From NCBI GenBank assembly GCA_030690305.1, contig JAUYHB010000006.1:84574-148573 (forward strand): a DNA stretch of 64,000 nt, written 5' to 3'. Position numbers and translations under genes: made by a program. Positions 37,897 through 42,688 of this stretch are shown piece by piece. The DNA is from a bacterium. Its GTDB lineage: Bacteria; Patescibacteriota; Minisyncoccia; Phycocordibacterales; JAGLPS01. The first letter of the stretch is position 1. Every line of letters begins with the position of its first letter. A model generated the notes under the pieces. It was not told the origin of the DNA. It searched no databases and saw only the letters and a list, made by a program, of their open reading frames with translations.

Positions 37897-38140
37897 TTCT
37901 TTCGTGATATATTTCGCCCATTATCCGAGAGACAATCCCCGACCAGGCGGATTCTCCACGGACAGGTCGCGGGATGGAGCAACAGTAGCTCGAAAGGCTC
38001 ATAACCTTTAGACCCTGGTGCAAATCCAGGTCCCGCAACACTTCAACTCGCTTCGCTCGTTCAGTGCGGGCAAGGCGAAGTGTCCCGAGCATAGTCGAGG
38101 GACAAGCAAAAATCCACGCAAAGAGTGCGTGGATTTTGGT
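37897..38140 (+). ncRNA. Candidate structured non-coding RNA (about 200 nt, GC-rich) ending in an intrinsic terminator. Identity unknown
   Basis: Locally GC-rich versus its surroundings. Multiple stems (ATCCCCGACC/GGTCGCGGGAT, CCCTGG/CCAGG, CCCGCA/TGCGGG). A terminal AAAATCCACGCA-aagag-TGCGTGGATTTT hairpin carries T-tracts. The six-frame ORFs here are low-complexity. Confidence 0.3.
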
Positions 38141-38209: not shown

Positions 38210-38881
38210 ATGGCGAAATCTAAAGAAAAGTTATTTGCACACACGTTACGTAGGGAAGGAAAGAGTATTCTTTATATTTCACAACAACTTAACATAGCTA
38301 AAAGCACAGTAAGTGTTTGGTGCAAAGACATTACACTCACCTCTTTTCAGAAGTCACAATTACACAAAAATTCAATCATCGCGGGACATAAAGGAAGAAT
38401 GATTGGCGCAATGCAAAATCATCTCAAAAAATTACAGACCATAGAAACATACCGAATCGAGGCAGAGAAAAATGTTGGCAGATTGTCAGCTCGTGAACAA
38501 TTGCTATTAGGAACAGCCCTGTATTGGGCTGAAGGAGGGAGAAAAAGTTCTGGATTTTCTTTTGTAAATTCTGACCCAAACATGATAGCATTCATCAGTA
38601 AGTGGCTCCAGGGAAGTTTTCAGATACAAAAAGAAGATTTTATACCTAGAATTTATATAAATGAGCTTCACAAACCCCGAGCAGAAAAAATATTGAAATT
38701 TTGGTCTGCTCTGCTACAATTACCCAGAAATCAATTCCGTCGTATTTCTTTTATCAAAACCAAGCAGAAAAAGATGTATGAAAATTATGACAATTATTAT
38801 GGTATGCTGGCTCTAAAAATCAGAAGAAGTACCAATTTGAAATACAAAGTGATGGGATTGATAGGAGCAATTAAAAATTAA
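38210..38881 (+). CDS. Free-standing HTH + LAGLIDADG-like (homing-endonuclease-like) protein
   Basis: N-terminal HTH (GKSILYISQQLNIAKSTVSVWCKDI). Central LLLGTALYWAEGGRK plus NSDPNMIAFISKWL resembles the LAGLIDADG helix and following strand (compare I-DmoI GLYVAEGDK...LEIVSRWLN). Confidence 0.5.
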   Translation: MAKSKEKLFAHTLRREGKSILYISQQLNIAKSTVSVWCKDITLTSFQKSQLHKNSIIAGHKGRMIGAMQNHLKKLQTIETYRIEAEKNVGRLSAREQLLLGTALYWAEGGRKSSGFSFVNSDPNMIAFISKWLQGSFQIQKEDFIPRIYINELHKPRAEKILKFWSALLQLPRNQFRRISFIKTKQKKMYENYDNYYGMLALKIRRSTNLKYKVMGLIGAIKN

Positions 38882-38885
38882 ACAC

Positions 38886-38960
38886 GCCGACGTAGCTCAG
38901 TGGTAGAGCACTTCACTCATAAAGAAGCGGTCGCAGGTTCAATCCCTGCCGTCGGCACCA
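38886..38960 (+). tRNA. tRNA-Met (anticodon CAT, elongator-type G1:C72; could also be a lysidine tRNA-Ile2)
   Basis: Cloverleaf with loop CTCATAA and encoded CCA. Confidence 0.85.
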
Positions 38961-39104
38961 GGTGAATACAAGACAGTAACAGGTTTTTTTGATAAAGTGT
39001 TCCCTGTGCCGTTTTTGTTCCTCATTTGCGGGAGTAAGCAAAAGCTTGCTACCGCGACGCTCGGAATTAAAGAATATGCTAGGCATGCTCTTTATTCCTC
39101 GCTT

Positions 39105-39178
39105 GCGGGAGTAGCTCAACTGGTTAGAGCATCCGCCTGTCACGCGGAAGGTTGCGGGTTCAAGTCCCGTCTCTCGCG
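39105..39178 (+). tRNA. tRNA-Asp (anticodon GTC)
   Basis: Cloverleaf GCGGGAG...CTGTCAC...GGTTCAAGTCCCGTCTCTCGCG. CCA is not encoded. Confidence 0.85.
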
Positions 39179-39185
39179 CATCGCC

Positions 39186-39217
39186 AAAAACCACTACCAT
39201 AATGGTAGTGGTTTTTG
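39186..39217 (+). terminator. Rho-independent terminator after tRNA-Asp
   Basis: CCACTACCA-taa-TGGTAGTGG followed by T5. Confidence 0.75.
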
Positions 39218-39345
39218 TGAGACGGGACTTGAAAGCCGGAGCACGACGACGCGAGGCGGGGTCGCGCAAATTTTTAGTAAAAAATTATGCGTGACCAAGT
39301 TCCCAAATAAAAATCTTCTTGGCCAAGTATCTCTCTCGCAAAAAG

Positions 39346-39381
39346 AAAAAGGTCTTTCACTTTTAGTGAAAGACCTTTTTT
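39346..39381. terminator. Bidirectional terminator
   Basis: 13-bp stem AAAGGTCTTTCAC/GTGAAAGACCTTT with T-tracts on both sides. Confidence 0.65.
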
Positions 39382-39386
39382 GCCAC

Positions 39387-39710
39387 TCAATTACGAGAGG
39401 GGCTGTACATGGAACGGGAGAAACAGTCTCCGTAAACTTCGTTGAGACCCATTTCTTTCAGAATCACAACACAAATTTCTATATCCATCTTCTCCCTCAT
39501 CTTGGACGCTTCGATTTGCCGAAGAAGTTCAAGGCTTTCATCCTTTCGTATTACTCCGTCTTTTATCGCAACTTCGACATGCAGACGGGCATTGCTTTTG
39601 GAAAAAACGATGATACCTTTTTCCCCTGGCGAAAGAAACAGAAAACCGAATTCTTTCGTCTTTTCGCAGTGCACGAAATATGGAGCAAATTTTGCAAGGG
39701 GTTGAGACAT
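39387..39710 (-). CDS. Hypothetical protein
   Basis: ORF with no family assignable. Start trimmed to MSQPLAKF. Confidence 0.35.
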   Translation of the reverse strand: MSQPLAKFAPYFVHCEKTKEFGFLFLSPGEKGIIVFSKSNARLHVEVAIKDGVIRKDESLELLRQIEASKMREKMDIEICVVILKEMGLNEVYGDCFSRSMYSPSRN

Positions 39711-39857
39711 GGACACCTCCTTTTTATATGTGACGAGCAAAAACCTACTCTCTACTCTAACACATTTTATTAAAAAATCAAGCCGTTATTTTGCAAAAAG
39801 AATGGCCCCTTCAATCAAAAAGATTGAAGGGGCCATAAAACATAATTACAGGGGGTT

Positions 39858-40181
39858 TTACGCTGAGATCAGCGTAGGTTCGATCAACTTCGCGTAAATC
39901 ACGAGGTCCATGGAAGAAAGCTCTCCCAAACACGAATGATTGATCCGGTTGATGAGAAAGAGAAGTTCTCTCTTTCCGATGACTTCCATCTCACAGGCGT
40001 ACATCGCGTATGCCCGAGCCGCCGCTTTGGAAAAGACAGGTACCGGTTTTCGAAAGAATGATGTTTTCTTTCGGAAACTGAACCTGCCGATTCGGGCTGA
40101 CAGATCGAGTACGTAGTGTCTCCTGCAGTCACCAACCTTAAAAACAACTCCTTTTACTGCACATTCTGCCTGTTGTTTCAT
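39858..40181 (-). CDS. Hypothetical protein
   Basis: ORF only. Basic, with no family assignable. Confidence 0.3.
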   Translation of the reverse strand: MKQQAECAVKGVVFKVGDCRRHYVLDLSARIGRFSFRKKTSFFRKPVPVFSKAAARAYAMYACEMEVIGKRELLFLINRINHSCLGELSSMDLVIYAKLIEPTLISA

Positions 40182-40291
40182 ACTCCCCCTCCTTGCTGAT
40201 GTGTTGAACTGTAACTGTACTACTCCTGAGATTAATTATATCAGTTTCAAGAGATAAAGTCAACCAAAAATCAAGAAAAACGTTGATACGC

Positions 40292-40951
40292 CTAGATATA
40301 ATAGAACTCTTCAAAAACTTTTTTATATAGTTCGATAGTGCGTCTTGCCTCCCTTTGGTTTAAAAGAAAATCCGAACCTTCGTGAGCAACGGCATTTCTG
40401 ATTTTGTGGGCCTCCCAGGCGTAATCAAGAGTTTCAAAATCGCTCGGTTCAACGTTTTTGAGTTTTTCTCCTATCGTTTCACCGTCATAGCCCATTTTGT
40501 CCAGGACTTCTTCAAGCATAATGTCCGCTTCCAAAATCGCCAGTTTCCAGTCTGAAGCGGTGTCGGATTCTATAAGTTTGAGAACCTGTTCCCATTTTTC
40601 ATTAAGCAAATGCTCGGGGCGAGAGTCCGTAATGGCAATTGAAACACCTTTCTGCGGAAACAGCTCTTTGTGTTCTTCCGCCCGAATCATATTTGTCTTT
40701 CTTGTAAAATGGGCCCAACCGACAATAAAAATTGCCGAGAAAATTATAGAGAGGATTTTGAGAAGAGGAAGAATGTCTCCGAATACCTCTTGTGCGTGCT
40801 CAAAAAAACCCAGCCCGACACGGACAAAAAGGCTCTCAAGAAGTCGCCTGACCGCATCGACAACAGCGAGGAGTACGAGACCAATTACTCCGATTTCAAT
40901 GGCAATCGCCACCGGATCGCTTGTTGTTGGTTTTTTCTCTTCTTCCGCCAT
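40292..40951 (-). CDS. Membrane-anchored HEPN-type (DUF4145-like) domain protein
   Basis: Two N-terminal TM helices. The C-terminal soluble domain ends in an R-x4-H motif (KIRNAVAHEG), characteristic of HEPN/DUF4145 nuclease-like domains. Confidence 0.45.
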   Translation of the reverse strand: MAEEEKKPTTSDPVAIAIEIGVIGLVLLAVVDAVRRLLESLFVRVGLGFFEHAQEVFGDILPLLKILSIIFSAIFIVGWAHFTRKTNMIRAEEHKELFPQKGVSIAITDSRPEHLLNEKWEQVLKLIESDTASDWKLAILEADIMLEEVLDKMGYDGETIGEKLKNVEPSDFETLDYAWEAHKIRNAVAHEGSDFLLNQREARRTIELYKKVFEEFYYI

Positions 40952-40959
40952 GTGTTTTA

Positions 40960-42390
40960 TTATACTTCACCCAGAAAACGTTTACCGACGGCAAAAAGAA
41001 TATTCTCTGCGGCATGGGGGGCCATGATTTGGAGTCCGAGAGGAAGATTACTTCCGTCACGGAGAGCTGTCCCCGAGGGAATTGAAATTGCCGGGATTCC
41101 GACAATGTTTGCGGTTACGGTAAAAATATCGGCAAGATACATTGAAAGCGGGTCTCCGGACTTCTCCCCTATTTTAAATGCCGGAGAGGGAGCCGTCGGC
41201 GTTATCACCGCGTCCACTTTTTCAAAAGCATTTGTAAAATCACGAGCGATAAGCGAGCGGACGGTATTGGCTTTGTTGTAATACGCATCGTAGTAACCGG
41301 AAGAAAGAACGTATGTGCCAAGCATAATACGACGGCGAACTTCGCGGCCAAACCCTTCTCGTCGGGTAATCAGATACTCTTCAAGCAAATCTTTACCCTC
41401 TTTTCTCAAACCGTATTTCACTCCGTCAAAACGGGCAAGGTTTGAAGACACTTCTGCGGGCATTAAAACGTAGTAGGAAGCCAAAGAGTACATGATGTTT
41501 TGAAGCGAAATTTCTTTGATTGTGTAGCCTAAAGACGTCAGTTTTTTGATAGAGTCCTCAAAATTTTTCTTCACGTCTTCATCCATACCTTTCGTTTCCA
41601 GAATTTCTTTCGGTACTCCGATTATCATGTTCTTTTTCTCTTTCCGCGGCGGATATGTTCCGTCAGGGTACGTCGTACTGTCATAGGGGTCTTGGCCTTT
41701 CATTGCATTAAACAGTATTTCCGCATCATCCACAGTGCGGGTGATGGGACCGATAACATCAAGAGAAGAACCCATGGCCATAAGTCCGTGACGGGAAACG
41801 CTTCCGTATGTCGGTTTAAGACCCACGCATCCGCAAAAACTTGCGGGCTGCCGTATTGAGCCTCCGGTGTCAGAACCCAGAGCGGCAAGAGCGAGTCCCC
41901 CACCCACCGCCGCGGCGGAACCGCCCGATGAGCCTCCGGGAACACGAGTGAGGTCGTGTGGGTTTTTTGTTACGCCAAAAGCGGAATTTTCCGTCGAACC
42001 TCCCATGGCAAATTCGTCCATGTTGGTACGACCCAAAAAGACGGCATCTTCGTTGATGATTTTTTGGGCCGCAGTCGCCGTATACGGCGCGGTGTAATTT
42101 TCAAGAATTTTTGATGCCGCGGACGCCTTCTTTCCCTTAATCAGAATATTGTCTTTAATGGCAAGCGGAATGCCGGTAAGCGCACCCGCTTCCCCATTTT
42201 CTATTTTTTTCTGAGCGGTTTCGGTTTGTTTGTCTATGTCGGAATATATTTCAAGATAGGCGTTGAGATCCTTATTTTTTTCTTTTGCAACGTCAAGAAA
42301 GGCGTGAACAAGTTCGGACACTGAAAAATCTTTGGTACAAAGACGTTCGTGGGCGGTGCGTATCGAGAGATGTGTGAGGTCTGAGGCCAT
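40960..42390 (-). CDS. gatA: Glutamyl-tRNA(Gln)/aspartyl-tRNA(Asn) amidotransferase subunit A
   Basis: Amidase signature GGSSGGSAAAVGGG with the Ser-cisSer-Lys triad context. Confidence 0.9.
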   Translation of the reverse strand: MASDLTHLSIRTAHERLCTKDFSVSELVHAFLDVAKEKNKDLNAYLEIYSDIDKQTETAQKKIENGEAGALTGIPLAIKDNILIKGKKASAASKILENYTAPYTATAAQKIINEDAVFLGRTNMDEFAMGGSTENSAFGVTKNPHDLTRVPGGSSGGSAAAVGGGLALAALGSDTGGSIRQPASFCGCVGLKPTYGSVSRHGLMAMGSSLDVIGPITRTVDDAEILFNAMKGQDPYDSTTYPDGTYPPRKEKKNMIIGVPKEILETKGMDEDVKKNFEDSIKKLTSLGYTIKEISLQNIMYSLASYYVLMPAEVSSNLARFDGVKYGLRKEGKDLLEEYLITRREGFGREVRRRIMLGTYVLSSGYYDAYYNKANTVRSLIARDFTNAFEKVDAVITPTAPSPAFKIGEKSGDPLSMYLADIFTVTANIVGIPAISIPSGTALRDGSNLPLGLQIMAPHAAENILFAVGKRFLGEV

Positions 42391-42394
42391 GCGT

Positions 42395-42688
42395 TTAGAG
42401 AATATTTTTTACTTTCAGTTCGTTGTTGTCCCCCTTTTCGGGAAATTCGGCGACAATTTCTTTCGTGTATGCGCCACTTTCGTGGGGATTCTCGTCTTCG
42501 CGCATAACATTTTTAAGCATATTGTCGGAAGACGATTTCTTGTCGTCAAGAGAAGACACGACATTTTTTATTTGTTCGACATAGCCCAAAATCGAGTCGA
42601 TTTCTTTGGCAAATTGTTCAACTTCTTCATCGCTTACCTTCATACGCGACAGCCCCGCGAGTTTTTTAACCTCTTCTTTGGTAATCAT
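42395..42688 (-). CDS. gatC: Glutamyl-tRNA(Gln) amidotransferase subunit C
   Basis: About 95-aa GatC fold (MITKEEVKKLAGLSRMKVSDEEVEQFAKEIDSILGYVEQI), immediately upstream of gatA. Confidence 0.85.
   Translation of the reverse strand: MITKEEVKKLAGLSRMKVSDEEVEQFAKEIDSILGYVEQIKNVVSSLDDKKSSSDNMLKNVMREDENPHESGAYTKEIVAEFPEKGDNNELKVKNIL

What the first reader, a model, noticed from the sequence alone, without database searches (positions are those of the whole stretch)
38210..40951. tRNA-Met/tRNA-Asp islet with a free-standing HTH-LAGLIDADG-like protein, two orphan ORFs and a membrane HEPN protein
The 38210-38881 product combines an N-terminal HTH with a segment closely resembling the LAGLIDADG helix and following strand of single-motif homing endonucleases (LLLGTALYWAEGGRK...MIAFISKWL versus I-DmoI GLYVAEGDK...LEIVSRWLN), yet it is not inside an intron or intein. 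It is followed by tRNA-Met and tRNA-Asp, three strong terminators, two small unassignable ORFs and a two-TM protein with a C-terminal R-x4-H HEPN/DUF4145-like motif (40292-40951). Together this looks like a small accessory or defence islet inserted next to tRNA genes and flanked by the gatCA operon.
Basis: partly seen in the sequence, partly recalled or inferred. Interest (0 to 1): 0.55.

Follow-up and report, generated by a model that had tools for sequence, protein, structure and literature searches.

The report
tRNA-linked homing endonuclease gene in Patescibacteria
The 223-residue protein belongs to an unannotated family of probable selfish DNA-cutting enzymes that lodge directly in front of tRNA genes in hundreds of ultra-small bacteria and in phage-like contigs. 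The rest of the proposed "islet" is ordinary conserved genome.

Summary
ORF 38210-38881 encodes an N-terminal HTH plus a C-terminal domain whose family profile matches only the second LAGLIDADG domain of I-DmoI (E=4e-5). Invariant E108 aligns with catalytic E117.

The "islet" reading does not hold.
- The 219-aa HEPN-like membrane protein belongs to a family of more than 840 clusters. It lies directly after gatA in 54 of 61 loci.
- The array of initiator tRNA, tRNA-Met and tRNA-Asp is also conserved.
- The two small ORFs are lineage-specific but shared with close relatives.

Only the HTH-LAGLIDADG gene is mobile.
- At least 560 species genomes carry it.
- In 69 of 78 evaluable loci it abuts a non-initiator tRNA(CAT), and in 57 of 84 ORFs the stop codon lies inside the tRNA.
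- In a sample chosen without regard to the gene, about 30 sites are empty, 6 occupied and 1 holds a remnant.
- Its phylogeny disagrees with host genes, and dN/dS is 0.03-0.15.
- An unrelated LAGLIDADG family sits likewise before tRNA-Asp, with many remnants.
- All 22 relatives in viral contigs lie in tRNA arrays.

Best reading: a free-standing homing endonuclease gene specialised on tRNA genes, analogous to phage T4 SegB. Nuclease activity and target site are inferred, not shown.

The parts
37968..38039 (+). Initiator-type tRNA(CAT) with a C1-A72 mismatch. It forms the left border of the slot that holds the endonuclease gene.
   Evidence: ARAGORN; Rfam tRNA 57.8 bits. The same tRNA lies upstream, on either strand, in most related loci.
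38109..38137 (+). 12-bp perfect hairpin followed by TTTT, terminator-like, after the initiator tRNA. An AT-rich stretch follows up to the ORF start.
   Evidence: Inverted repeat I4; sequence read.
38210..38881 (+). HEG1: 223-aa HTH plus single LAGLIDADG-like protein, a probable free-standing homing endonuclease gene. Its stop codon lies 4 nt before the tRNA.
   Evidence: ORF; 52 homologues; at least 560 species genomes; I-DmoI profile match E=3.9e-5; AF2 pLDDT 93; dN/dS 0.11-0.12 against L092 and L093.
38219..38320 (+). N-terminal three-helix HTH (residues about 4-37), resolvase/transposase type.
   Evidence: AF2 helices 4-15, 20-27 and 31-37. HTH_23, HTH_38, HTH_28 and HTH_7 hits in 31-46 of 51 members.
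38342..38476 (+). Single long helix (residues 45-89) that links the HTH to the nuclease-like domain.
   Evidence: AF2 secondary structure.
38510..38545 (+). LAGLIDADG-like motif G101-TALYWAEGGRK-112. Y105, E108 and G109 are invariant. Position 111 is K in at least 90% of members and R here.
   Evidence: Alignment A1. It aligns to I-DmoI LYVAEGDK (E117, K120). The I-DmoI E117A and Q42A/K120M entries score 4-5 bits lower.
38477..38878 (+). C-terminal nuclease-like domain (residues 90-223), predicted as alpha-beta-beta-alpha-beta-alpha-beta-beta-alpha.
   Evidence: Foldseek gives I-DmoI probability 0.96 but E=0.15 at rank 26.
38886..38960 (+). Non-initiator tRNA(CAT), elongator-Met-like. This is the gene the endonuclease ORF abuts throughout the family.
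   Evidence: ARAGORN; Rfam 71.1 bits. The abutment holds in 69 of 78 evaluable loci.
39105..39179 (+). tRNA-Asp(GTC), the next member of the conserved array. In other genomes it is preceded by a second, unrelated LAGLIDADG gene; that slot is empty here.
   Evidence: no HEG2 remnant detected in the window.
39185..39217 (+). Perfect 16-bp hairpin with flanking A and T runs; a bidirectional terminator-like end of the tRNA transcription unit.
   Evidence: Inverted repeat I1.
39387..39740 (-). Context, not part of the mobile element. Small lineage-specific ORF, probable start at 39710 giving 107 aa, with its own terminator at 39346-39380.
   Evidence: Only 5 relatives among 1.84 billion representative proteins. 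Conserved in L088 and L089, weakly in L090-L092. Terminator.
39858..40181 (-). Context. Second small lineage-specific ORF (107 aa), a weak paralogue of the first. It has a promoter-like site at 40263-40235 and a terminator at 39802-39836.
   Evidence: No homologue but itself in the word-indexed search. Conserved in L089 (E=3e-63) and weakly similar to the other small ORF. Signals.
40292..40951 (-). Context. Conserved Patescibacteria membrane protein with a C-terminal HEPN-like helical bundle (invariant R185, N186, H190), the gene that follows gatA.
   Evidence: 843+ homologous clusters; alignment A3; sub-threshold HEPN Pfam hits; AF2 model; directly after gatA in 54 of 61 loci.

Best explanation
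ORF 38210-38881 is a free-standing homing-endonuclease-type selfish gene, called HEG1 here. It occupies the spacer immediately 5' of the non-initiator tRNA(CAT) gene in a conserved Patescibacteria tRNA array (initiator tRNA, tRNA-Met, tRNA-Asp, then tRNA-Thr genes in many relatives).

Shown:
- The protein has an N-terminal resolvase/transposase-type HTH, a 45-residue helix, and a single domain related to the second LAGLIDADG domain of I-DmoI, with the catalytic acidic residue invariant.
- The gene is under purifying selection.
- It is present or absent at exactly the same site among related genomes, and it leaves remnants.
- Its phylogeny conflicts with that of neighbouring host genes.
- Relatives sit next to other tRNA genes in Patescibacteria and inside dense tRNA arrays of viral contigs.

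Inferred:
- The protein dimerises, as single-motif LAGLIDADG enzymes do, and cuts HEG-less alleles of the array at a site that includes conserved tRNA-gene sequence.
- Recombinational repair, using the flanking tRNA genes as homology, then copies the gene, and sometimes the adjacent tRNA genes, into the broken allele.
- The insertion is harmless because the ORF lies in the 5' leader of the tRNA transcript, which RNase P removes. tRNA processing would thus play the part that splicing plays for intron-borne endonuclease genes.

The other genes of the reported interval are conserved neighbours, not cargo.
For: Domain identity:
- The family profile hits only I-DmoI in the PDB sequence set, at E=3.9e-5. 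E108 aligns with E117 and K/R111 with K120, and mutant I-DmoI entries score lower.
- The C-terminal domain profile alone again finds only I-DmoI, at E=5e-4.
- The HTH is confirmed in 46 of 51 members.
- The AF2 model has pLDDT 93.

Site specificity:
- 69 of 78 evaluable GTDB loci have the ORF overlapping, or within 15 nt of, a tRNA(CAT) on the same strand.
- The stop codon lies inside the tRNA in 57 of 84 ORFs, and 42 of these use nucleotides 8-10 or 8-11.

Presence and absence:
- Loci fetched through the neighbouring 219-aa gene show about 29-31 empty sites (the two CAT tRNAs 12-137 nt apart), 6 occupied sites and 1 remnant of 75 codons in L094.

Horizontal transfer:
- The host-gene control gives r(gatA, 219C)=0.56. 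HEG1 against host genes gives r=0.26-0.29.
- Some pairs have gatA 78-86% identical but HEG1 only 27-53%. Others have HEG1 83-85% identical but gatA 58-59%.

Cassette replacement:
- L120 and L128 are 93% identical in DNA up to 2 nt past the initiator tRNA.
- They then differ completely through tRNA-Met and tRNA-Asp, and similarity resumes about 30 nt past tRNA-Asp.

Function:
- dN/dS is 0.03-0.15 in 8 pairs.

Parallels:
- An unrelated double-motif LAGLIDADG family abuts tRNA-Asp in 25 loci and has left C-terminal remnants in at least 11.
- HEG1-like paralogues lie before tRNA-Thr and tRNA-Glu.
- All 22 relatives in IMG/VR viral contigs lie in tRNA arrays.
- Group I introns occur in the neighbouring initiator tRNA genes.

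Precedent:
- T4 SegB sits in a tRNA cluster, recognises a tRNA TpsiC motif and drags neighbouring tRNA genes along (PMC2330249).
Against: - No nuclease activity, target site or dimer has been shown.
- Fold-level support is weak. The top Foldseek hits of the model in the PDB are unrelated alpha/beta proteins at E about 0.01. I-DmoI appears only at rank 26 (E=0.15, TM 0.29-0.36).
- No Pfam LAGLIDADG model is hit. Profile-profile comparison with the canonical LAGLIDADG family found at tRNA-Asp is not significant.
- The nearest relatives (74% and 68% identity) keep the gene in the same place. Almost all copies seen are intact and strongly constrained, which also fits a useful host gene.
- HEG1-linked and HEG1-free tRNA 5' sequences can be identical, so how an occupied allele escapes cleavage is unexplained.
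- tRNA-Met identity tracks neither HEG1 nor the host (r=0.08), so regular co-transfer of the tRNA is not demonstrated.
Confidence: 0.7

Rival explanations
1. The protein is a domesticated LAGLIDADG-derived DNA-binding protein, in the way WhiA is a LAGLIDADG plus HTH transcription factor. It would regulate or organise transcription of the adjacent tRNA genes and would be inherited mainly vertically, with occasional loss.
For: - Intact, strongly constrained ORFs: dN/dS 0.03-0.15.
- At least 560 species carry it.
- The position beside the tRNA promoter region is fixed.
- The nearest relatives share the layout.
- There is a weak positive correlation with host-gene divergence, r=0.26-0.29.
Against: - It is absent from about 30 of roughly 40 comparable arrays chosen independently of it.
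- A truncated remnant exists in L094.
- Close hosts carry HEG1 copies only 27-36% identical, and distant hosts carry copies 83-85% identical.
- The acidic residue that is catalytic in I-DmoI is invariant.
- Relatives occur beside different tRNAs and in viral tRNA arrays.
- A second, canonical LAGLIDADG family shows the same placement and clear decay.
Confidence: 0.15
2. A LAGLIDADG-type RNA-binding helper (maturase-like) that acts on the precursor transcript of the adjacent tRNA, for example in 5' processing. It would not act on DNA.
For: - The ORF is physically fused to the tRNA precursor, with the stop codon inside the tRNA in 57 of 84 ORFs.
- Some LAGLIDADG proteins are intron maturases; this is established knowledge, and PDB 2ab5 'mRNA maturase' appears among hits of the tRNA-Asp family.
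- Group I introns occur in neighbouring tRNAs.
Against: - Most arrays do without it.
- The tRNA it abuts has no intron.
- The HTH is of a DNA-binding type.
- The catalytic residue is conserved.
Confidence: 0.05
3. One reading: the whole interval 38210-40951 is a single accessory or defence islet inserted next to tRNA genes. The HEPN protein would be a toxin or effector and the LAGLIDADG protein a partner.
For: - There is a HEPN-like motif with an invariant RNxxxH.
- The small ORFs have a very narrow distribution.
- tRNA genes are common insertion sites (general knowledge).
Against: - The 219-aa gene follows gatA in 54 of 61 loci and has 843+ homologous clusters.
- It occurs with or without HEG1.
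- The tRNA array itself is conserved.
- There are no PADLOC hits.
- GC content of the interval is not distinctive apart from a dip to 0.38 over the HEG1 kilobase.
- There are no flanking direct repeats or an integrase.
Confidence: 0.03
4. An HTH-only remnant of a transposase or recombinase (IS630, Tc1 or resolvase-like) that happens to lie near tRNA genes.
For: Weak hits of the N-terminus to the IS630 transposase HTH, the Sleeping Beauty PAI subdomain and the resolvase HTH.
Against: - There is no DDE or serine-recombinase domain.
- The C-terminal 135 residues are the best conserved part and match I-DmoI.
- There are no terminal inverted repeats.
- The gene is single-copy and site-specific.
Confidence: 0.03

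Closest known systems
I-DmoI (archaeal LAGLIDADG homing endonuclease, Desulfurococcus mobilis 23S rRNA intron), C-terminal domain
   Same: It is the only solved protein found by the family profile (E=3.9e-5). The motif helix LYWAEG(x)K aligns with LYVAEGDK, and the following beta-hairpin, the helix (kwL against RWL) and the next strand also align. The residues equivalent to E117 and K120 are conserved.
   Different: - I-DmoI is a two-domain monomer encoded in an intron. HEG1 has one LAGLIDADG-like domain, so it presumably acts as a dimer.
- HEG1 carries an added N-terminal HTH and a 45-residue helix, plus an extra helix and hairpin between the third and fourth strands.
- HEG1 is free-standing.
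- No Pfam LAGLIDADG model recognises it.
Phage T4 SegB, a free-standing GIY-YIG homing endonuclease in the T4 tRNA gene cluster (PMC2330249)
   Same: It is a free-standing endonuclease gene embedded among tRNA genes. Its recognition site contains conserved tRNA sequence, and homing carries the neighbouring tRNA genes along. The L120/L128 cassette replacement and the 22 viral tRNA-array relatives look alike in kind.
   Different: - The nuclease family differs (GIY-YIG against LAGLIDADG-like).
- SegB is a phage gene; the window gene is chromosomal in a cellular organism.
- SegB activity and homing are demonstrated experimentally. Here both are inferred.
HNH endonuclease genes linked to tRNA arrays in mycobacteriophages and cyanobacterial L-arrays (PMC6409571, PMC8421152)
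   Same: An endonuclease gene is conserved beside or inside tRNA arrays and is proposed to spread them horizontally.
   Different: The nuclease fold differs. No exact abutment to a particular tRNA 5' end, and no stop codon inside a tRNA, is described in the passages read.
LAGLIDADG endonucleases in rRNA insertion sequences of CPR/Patescibacteria (PMC11270868)
   Same: The host phylum and the broad enzyme superfamily are the same. Both are selfish elements lodged in genes of stable RNAs.
   Different: Those are encoded inside insertions within 16S and 23S rRNA genes. That paper does not mention tRNA, free-standing genes or HTH fusions. HEG1 lies outside the RNA gene, in its 5' leader.
WhiA (bacterial LAGLIDADG plus HTH transcription factor)
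   Same: It combines LAGLIDADG-type and HTH domains in a bacterial chromosomal protein.
   Different: From general knowledge, WhiA has two degenerate LAGLIDADG domains that lack catalytic residues, a C-terminal HTH, and near-universal vertical inheritance in its clades. HEG1 has one domain with the acidic residue invariant, an N-terminal HTH and a patchy distribution.

Membership tests
LAGLIDADG homing endonucleases | A LAGLIDADG helix that ends in a conserved acidic residue followed by glycine | tested here: met
   The motif is G101-TALYWAEG-109. Y105, E108 and G109 are invariant in 51 sequences. It aligns to I-DmoI LYVAEG with E108 matching E117.
LAGLIDADG homing endonucleases | Significant sequence similarity to recognised members or family models | tested here: inconclusive
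   - The family profile against PDB sequences finds I-DmoI only: E=3.9e-5 for the full profile and 5e-4 for the domain alone.
- No Pfam LAGLIDADG family is hit by any of 51 members.
- hhalign against the canonical tRNA-Asp LAGLIDADG family gives probability 0.2.
LAGLIDADG homing endonucleases | An alpha-beta-beta-alpha-beta-beta-alpha core fold with a four-stranded DNA-binding sheet | tested here: inconclusive
   - The AF2 model (pLDDT 93) gives alpha-beta-beta-alpha-beta-alpha-beta-beta-alpha.
- Foldseek against the PDB lists I-DmoI at probability 0.96 but E=0.15 and rank 26, behind unrelated folds.
LAGLIDADG homing endonucleases | Metal-dependent site-specific double-strand cleavage leaving 4-nt 3' overhangs, with homodimerisation in single-motif enzymes | not testable with these tools
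   This needs biochemistry or a multimer/DNA model.
Free-standing homing endonuclease gene (mobile by homing) | Presence/absence polymorphism at one defined genomic site among related genomes | tested here: met
   In the sample chosen independently of HEG1, 6 sites are occupied, 1 holds a remnant and about 29-31 are empty, all 5' of the non-initiator tRNA(CAT).
Free-standing homing endonuclease gene (mobile by homing) | A phylogeny incongruent with host genes | tested here: met
   r(HEG1, gatA)=0.26 against the control r(gatA, 219C)=0.56. Strongly discordant pairs occur in both directions. The test uses pairwise identities, not a full tree reconciliation.
Free-standing homing endonuclease gene (mobile by homing) | Degenerate or truncated copies (the invasion-decay-loss cycle) | tested here: met
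   - L094 holds a 75-codon C-terminal HEG1 remnant.
- L019 and L034 have read-through variants, and L025 carries an insertion.
- The sister family at tRNA-Asp has left at least 11 short remnants.
Free-standing homing endonuclease gene (mobile by homing) | Cleavage of the HEG-less allele and gene conversion that depends on the endonuclease | not testable with these tools
   The L120/L128 cassette replacement is compatible with this but does not prove it.
HEPN domain (for the 219-aa protein 40292-40951) | An Rx4-6H motif | tested here: met
   R185-N-A-V-A-H190 is present. R185, N186 and H190 are invariant in 44 sequences.
HEPN domain (for the 219-aa protein 40292-40951) | An all-alpha four-helix up-and-down bundle | tested here: inconclusive
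   - The AF2 C-terminal domain is all-helical with pLDDT above 90.
- Foldseek matches are generic helical bundles.
- The most HEPN-like hit is 1wty_A at probability 0.72, E=0.43. That 1wty is a HEPN/DUF86-type protein rests on my own knowledge.
HEPN domain (for the 219-aa protein 40292-40951) | A match to a curated HEPN family model above threshold | tested here: not met
   Only sub-threshold hits were found: HEPN_Swt1 in 20 of 44 members (best E=0.03), plus HEPN_RiboL-PSP, HEPN_Cthe2314 and pEK499_p136. The window protein itself has none.
Anti-phage defence island | Known defence proteins, and joint variable presence of the genes | tested here: not met
   PADLOC gives no hit for any of the four proteins. 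The 219-aa gene is conserved after gatA in 54 of 61 loci, independently of HEG1.

The most novel reading that the evidence does not exclude
The endonuclease gene and the tRNA it abuts may form one functional and mobile unit, in two senses.

(a) Homing may drag the adjacent tRNA genes along. These elements would then drive horizontal replacement of tRNA alleles across Patescibacteria and in huge-phage tRNA arrays.
- This would explain why tRNA-Met identity shows no relation to host phylogeny (r=0.08).
- It would also explain why two genomes that are 93% identical carry unrelated tRNA-Met and tRNA-Asp genes.

(b) Ending the ORF inside the tRNA may couple endonuclease expression to tRNA processing. 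RNase P cleavage at the tRNA 5' end would leave an mRNA with no stop codon, which trans-translation would then destroy. Only unprocessed precursors could yield enzyme. RNase P processing would be the functional equivalent of intron or intein splicing for this class of selfish gene.
Probability: 0.25. Interest if true: 0.75.

Novelty: new variant of a known kind. Interest (0 to 1): 0.6.

Why it matters
Free-standing endonuclease genes in tRNA clusters are known from phage T4 (GIY-YIG SegB) and from HNH genes beside phage and cyanobacterial tRNA arrays. Here a different, unannotated family does the same in the chromosomes of a whole bacterial phylum. It has an HTH plus one LAGLIDADG-like domain and no Pfam, NCBIfam or PHROG model.

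The placement is unusually exact. The ORF usually runs into the tRNA and stops on the tRNA's own nucleotides. A second LAGLIDADG family and group I introns occupy the same array.

If the mechanism holds, three things follow:
- It would explain part of the turnover of tRNA genes in Patescibacteria.
- It would link these cells to huge phages through shared mobile elements.
- It would suggest the 5' leader of a tRNA as a safe harbour in which RNase P processing replaces splicing.
- It would offer a compact new meganuclease scaffold whose natural targets are highly conserved sequences.

It also corrects annotation: these genes are currently labelled hypothetical, transposase or transcriptional regulator.

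Tried and rejected
- Single-sequence scans of the four proteins against Pfam, NCBIfam, PHROGs and PADLOC gave nothing significant beyond weak HTH hits.
- A single-sequence PDB search gave nothing.
- Foldseek of the full HEG1 model gave only weak matches against the PDB and nothing useful against viral structures.
- hhalign of HEG1 against the canonical tRNA-Asp LAGLIDADG family was not significant.
- I tested whether the ORF lies in a tRNA intron or a split tRNA. Both flanking tRNAs are complete, so I rejected this.
- I looked for terminal inverted repeats or target duplications around the ORF and found none.
- I tested whether the linked tRNA co-evolves with HEG1 rather than with the host. 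It correlates with neither, so the test is uninformative.
- I tried to define insertion boundaries from other occupied/empty pairs (L054/L138, L153/L109, L097/L105, L094/L099). They are too divergent, at about 70% nucleotide identity.
- Long spacers between the initiator tRNA and tRNA-Met that lack HEG1 (L121, L125, L156, L166, L141, L170) hold ordinary genes, not a third endonuclease family.
- tblastn of the window protein and two viral-contig relatives against GenBank phages gave no match.
- The first attempt to scan genomes with the 51-sequence alignment failed for lack of a conserved block.
- gatB is not among the ten other ORFs of at least 380 aa scanned against Pfam (of the fourteen such ORFs in the window), so gatB was not found.

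Full report
**What is in the window**

The window comes from a Patescibacteria (CPR) metagenome-assembled genome. The 223-aa product is 100% identical to an NCBI "MAG: Patescibacteria group bacterium" hypothetical protein. The features are listed here in plus-strand coordinate order; the tRNA genes and the 223-aa ORF are on the plus strand, and the two small ORFs, the 219-aa ORF, gatA and gatC are on the minus strand.
- An initiator-type tRNA(CAT), 37968-38039.
- A hairpin, 38109-38137.
- The 223-aa ORF, 38210-38881.
- A non-initiator tRNA(CAT), 38886-38960, which begins 4 nt after the stop codon.
- tRNA-Asp(GTC), 39105-39179.
- A perfect 16-bp hairpin, 39185-39217.
- Two small ORFs, each with its own terminator (39387-39740 and 39858-40181).
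- A 219-aa ORF, 40292-40951.
- gatA and gatC.

**The 223-aa protein**

Searched alone, it gives only weak HTH hits. It has 52 homologues in the protein collection, nearly all 217-242 aa, named hypothetical, "transposase" or "transcriptional regulator".

In the alignment, Y105, E108, G109, W165 and G198 are invariant. A profile of the family finds one protein in the PDB sequence set, I-DmoI, at E=3.9e-5.
- It aligns LYWAEGsK to LYVAEGDK, and also the following hairpin, helix and strand.
- The I-DmoI E117A and Q42A/K120M entries score 4-5 bits lower. E108 and position 111 therefore align with those active-site residues.
- The C-terminal domain profile alone again finds only I-DmoI, at E=5e-4.

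The N-terminal HTH is clear in 46 of 51 members.

**Where the family lives**

At least 560 species-representative genomes encode relatives, and all of the 80 listed are Patescibacteria-type MAGs by their titles. In 69 of the 78 evaluable loci among the best 80, the ORF overlaps, or lies within 15 nt of, a tRNA(CAT) on the same strand. tRNA-Asp usually follows, and an initiator-type tRNA(CAT) on either strand usually precedes.

The stop codon lies inside the tRNA in 57 of 84 ORFs.
- 42 use tRNA nucleotides 8-10 or 8-11 (TAG).
- 10 use the TAA of the anticodon loop.

This explains the odd C-terminal tails such as VAQVVRASHS in the alignment.

More distant members abut tRNA-Glu(CTC) and tRNA-Thr(GGT). 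All 22 relatives in IMG/VR viral contigs (25-498 kb) lie inside dense tRNA arrays, several with the same abutment. None is in GenBank phages.

**Is it mobile?**

I sampled the locus independently of the gene by fetching 80 metagenome loci through the neighbouring 219-aa family. Among 52 non-initiator tRNA(CAT) genes:
- about 29-31 sites are empty, with the two CAT tRNAs 12-137 nt apart;
- 6 sites have the gene;
- 1 site (L094) keeps only the last 75 codons, next to the tRNA.

Pairwise identities of the gene correlate poorly with those of the host genes gatA and the 219-aa C-domain (r=0.26-0.29). The host-host control gives r=0.56. Discordance runs in both directions.
- L054/L158: gatA 81%, HEG1 27%.
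- L070/L153: gatA 78%, HEG1 35%.
- L064/L065: HEG1 85%, gatA 59%.
- L079/L050: HEG1 84%, gatA 58%.

L120 (occupied) and L128 (empty) are 93% identical in DNA up to 2 nt past the initiator tRNA. They then share nothing, tRNA-Met and tRNA-Asp included, until about 30 nt past tRNA-Asp. This looks like replacement of the whole cassette.

The gene is under purifying selection, with dN/dS of 0.03-0.15.

The nearest relatives of the window organism (74% and 68% identical proteins) have the gene in the same place.

**Company in the same array**

An unrelated, canonical double-motif LAGLIDADG family of about 225-231 aa sits in the same way before tRNA-Asp.
- Its motifs are LGFFAADG and GYFDGDG.
- It hits Pfam LAGLIDADG_3 at E=5e-12, and PDB 2dch and I-AniI.
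- The modal overlap with the tRNA is again 10 nt.
- It is full-length in 25 loci and has left C-terminal remnants of about 35 codons in at least 11.
- That slot is empty in the window.

Group I introns interrupt the initiator tRNA in L158, L070 and L153, and further introns occur in L125 and L146. The array is a hot spot for selfish elements.

**The rest of the "islet"**

The 219-aa protein has 843+ homologous clusters. Its C-terminal domain of about 105 residues is very conserved, with invariant R185, N186 and H190. Its gene lies directly after gatA in 54 of 61 loci and is followed within 400 nt by a tRNA(CAT) in 37 of 67. It is a core Patescibacteria gene.

HEPN membership is plausible but unproven.
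- The Rx4H motif is met.
- The model is a helical bundle.
- Only sub-threshold hits to four HEPN Pfam families were found.
- The Foldseek matches are weak.

The two small ORFs are narrow in distribution. They are conserved in close relatives and are weak paralogues of each other. Nothing matches PADLOC.

**Mechanism**

The best-supported reading is a free-standing homing endonuclease gene specialised on tRNA genes, in the manner of T4 SegB. SegB sits in a tRNA cluster, recognises a tRNA TpsiC motif and spreads with neighbouring tRNA genes (PMC2330249). HNH genes beside tRNA arrays are a further precedent (PMC6409571 and PMC8421152).

Shown: domain make-up, site specificity, patchy occupancy, a remnant, incongruent phylogeny and selective constraint.

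Inferred:
- dimerisation;
- cleavage of empty alleles at a site that includes tRNA sequence;
- repair using the flanking tRNAs as homology;
- harmlessness of the insertion, because the ORF lies in a 5' leader that RNase P removes.

Two points remain unexplained. First, how occupied alleles escape cleavage, given that tRNA 5' sequences can be identical in occupied and empty sites. Second, why nearly all copies seen are intact.

The main rival is a domesticated regulator of the WhiA kind. The constraint and the short-range synteny fit it. The occupancy, the remnant, the discordant phylogeny and the viral relatives argue against it.

**Novelty**

I found no paper that describes tRNA-linked LAGLIDADG genes in Patescibacteria. 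The CPR rRNA-insertion study does not mention tRNA. The kind of element is known, namely endonuclease genes in tRNA clusters. The family, its host range and the exact ORF-into-tRNA geometry appear to be new.

Noticed in passing
L003:5294-5956; also L108, L112, L115, L119, L126, L128, L139, L140, L162, L168, L173, L018, L023, L025, L034, L065 (ORFs ending at tRNA-Asp): A second, unrelated double-motif LAGLIDADG family (about 225-231 aa, motifs LGFFAADG and GYFDGDG) sits immediately 5' of tRNA-Asp(GTC). Its stop codon is usually at tRNA nucleotides 8-10. It is full-length in 25 loci, and C-terminal remnants of about 35 codons remain beside tRNA-Asp in at least 11 others.
   Followed up: partly
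L158:2368-2560; L070:2659-2875; L153:6592-6817; L125:4070-4307; L146:2184-2408: Rfam finds group I introns (RF00028, 52-68 bits). In L158, L070 and L153 the intron interrupts the initiator tRNA(CAT) at the anticodon loop, so ARAGORN misses that tRNA.
   Followed up: partly
window 40292-40951 and 40960-42688: The HEPN-like 219-aa membrane protein gene occupies the position directly after gatC-gatA, where gatB sits in the canonical gatCAB operon. It does so in 54 of 61 related loci. No gatB turned up among the ten other large ORFs of the window that were scanned against Pfam. A functional link to tRNA-dependent amidation or to the adjacent tRNAs is possible but untested.
   Followed up: partly
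window 39014-39036 and 39091-39113: This is a 23-nt direct repeat (87% identical). Its second copy spans the 5' junction of tRNA-Asp: 14 nt of flank plus the first 9 nt of the tRNA. It may be a scar of a past insertion or deletion in the tRNA-Asp slot.
   Followed up: no
window 39159-39173 and 39219-39233: There is a perfect 15-nt inverted copy of the 3' end of tRNA-Asp (T-arm and acceptor) just beyond the terminator hairpin. The tRNA 3' end could therefore pair with downstream sequence.
   Followed up: no
L174-L195 (IMG/VR viral contigs of 21-498 kb): All 22 relatives of the 223-aa protein in viral contigs lie inside dense tRNA arrays, with up to 23 tRNAs in 5 kb. Several abut a tRNA-Val(TAC) or tRNA-Cys in the same way. 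No relative exists in GenBank phage records.
   Followed up: partly
L040:5258-5635; L128:8459-8818; L117:2570-2914; L146:5041-5385; L072:2951-3322; L006:4001-4681: These are paralogues that share the C-terminal LAGLIDADG-like domain. They lie beside other tRNAs: 28 nt before tRNA-Thr(GGT) in L040 and 7 nt before tRNA-Glu(CTC) in L006.
   Followed up: partly
L128:8859-9103 compared with L158:5049-5122: The tRNA-Thr(GGT) sequence of L158 matches L128 in two perfect pieces separated by about 170 nt. This suggests an insertion inside that tRNA gene in L128. Rfam gave no hit at gathering score.
   Followed up: no
L120:705-2284 compared with L128:6789-7759: Two genomes that are 93% identical in flanking DNA carry unrelated tRNA-Met and tRNA-Asp genes between conserved borders. 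Across 42 loci, tRNA-Met identity correlates with neither host genes nor the endonuclease (r=0.08).
   Followed up: partly
window 40263-40235 (minus strand): A near-consensus promoter-like site (TTGACT, 17 nt, TATAAT; 11 of 12 with a TG extension) lies between the 219-aa gene and the 107-aa ORF. The small ORF therefore appears to be a separate transcription unit.
   Followed up: no
non-initiator tRNA(CAT) genes in L094-L173: In the sample chosen independently of the endonuclease gene, 4 of 6 occupied sites have a tRNA with a non-C at position 32 (TTCATAA, ATCATAA or GTCATAA). Only 1 of 29 empty sites does. This could reflect immunity changes, a different isoacceptor (Met versus lysidine-Ile2) or lineage effects.
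   Followed up: no
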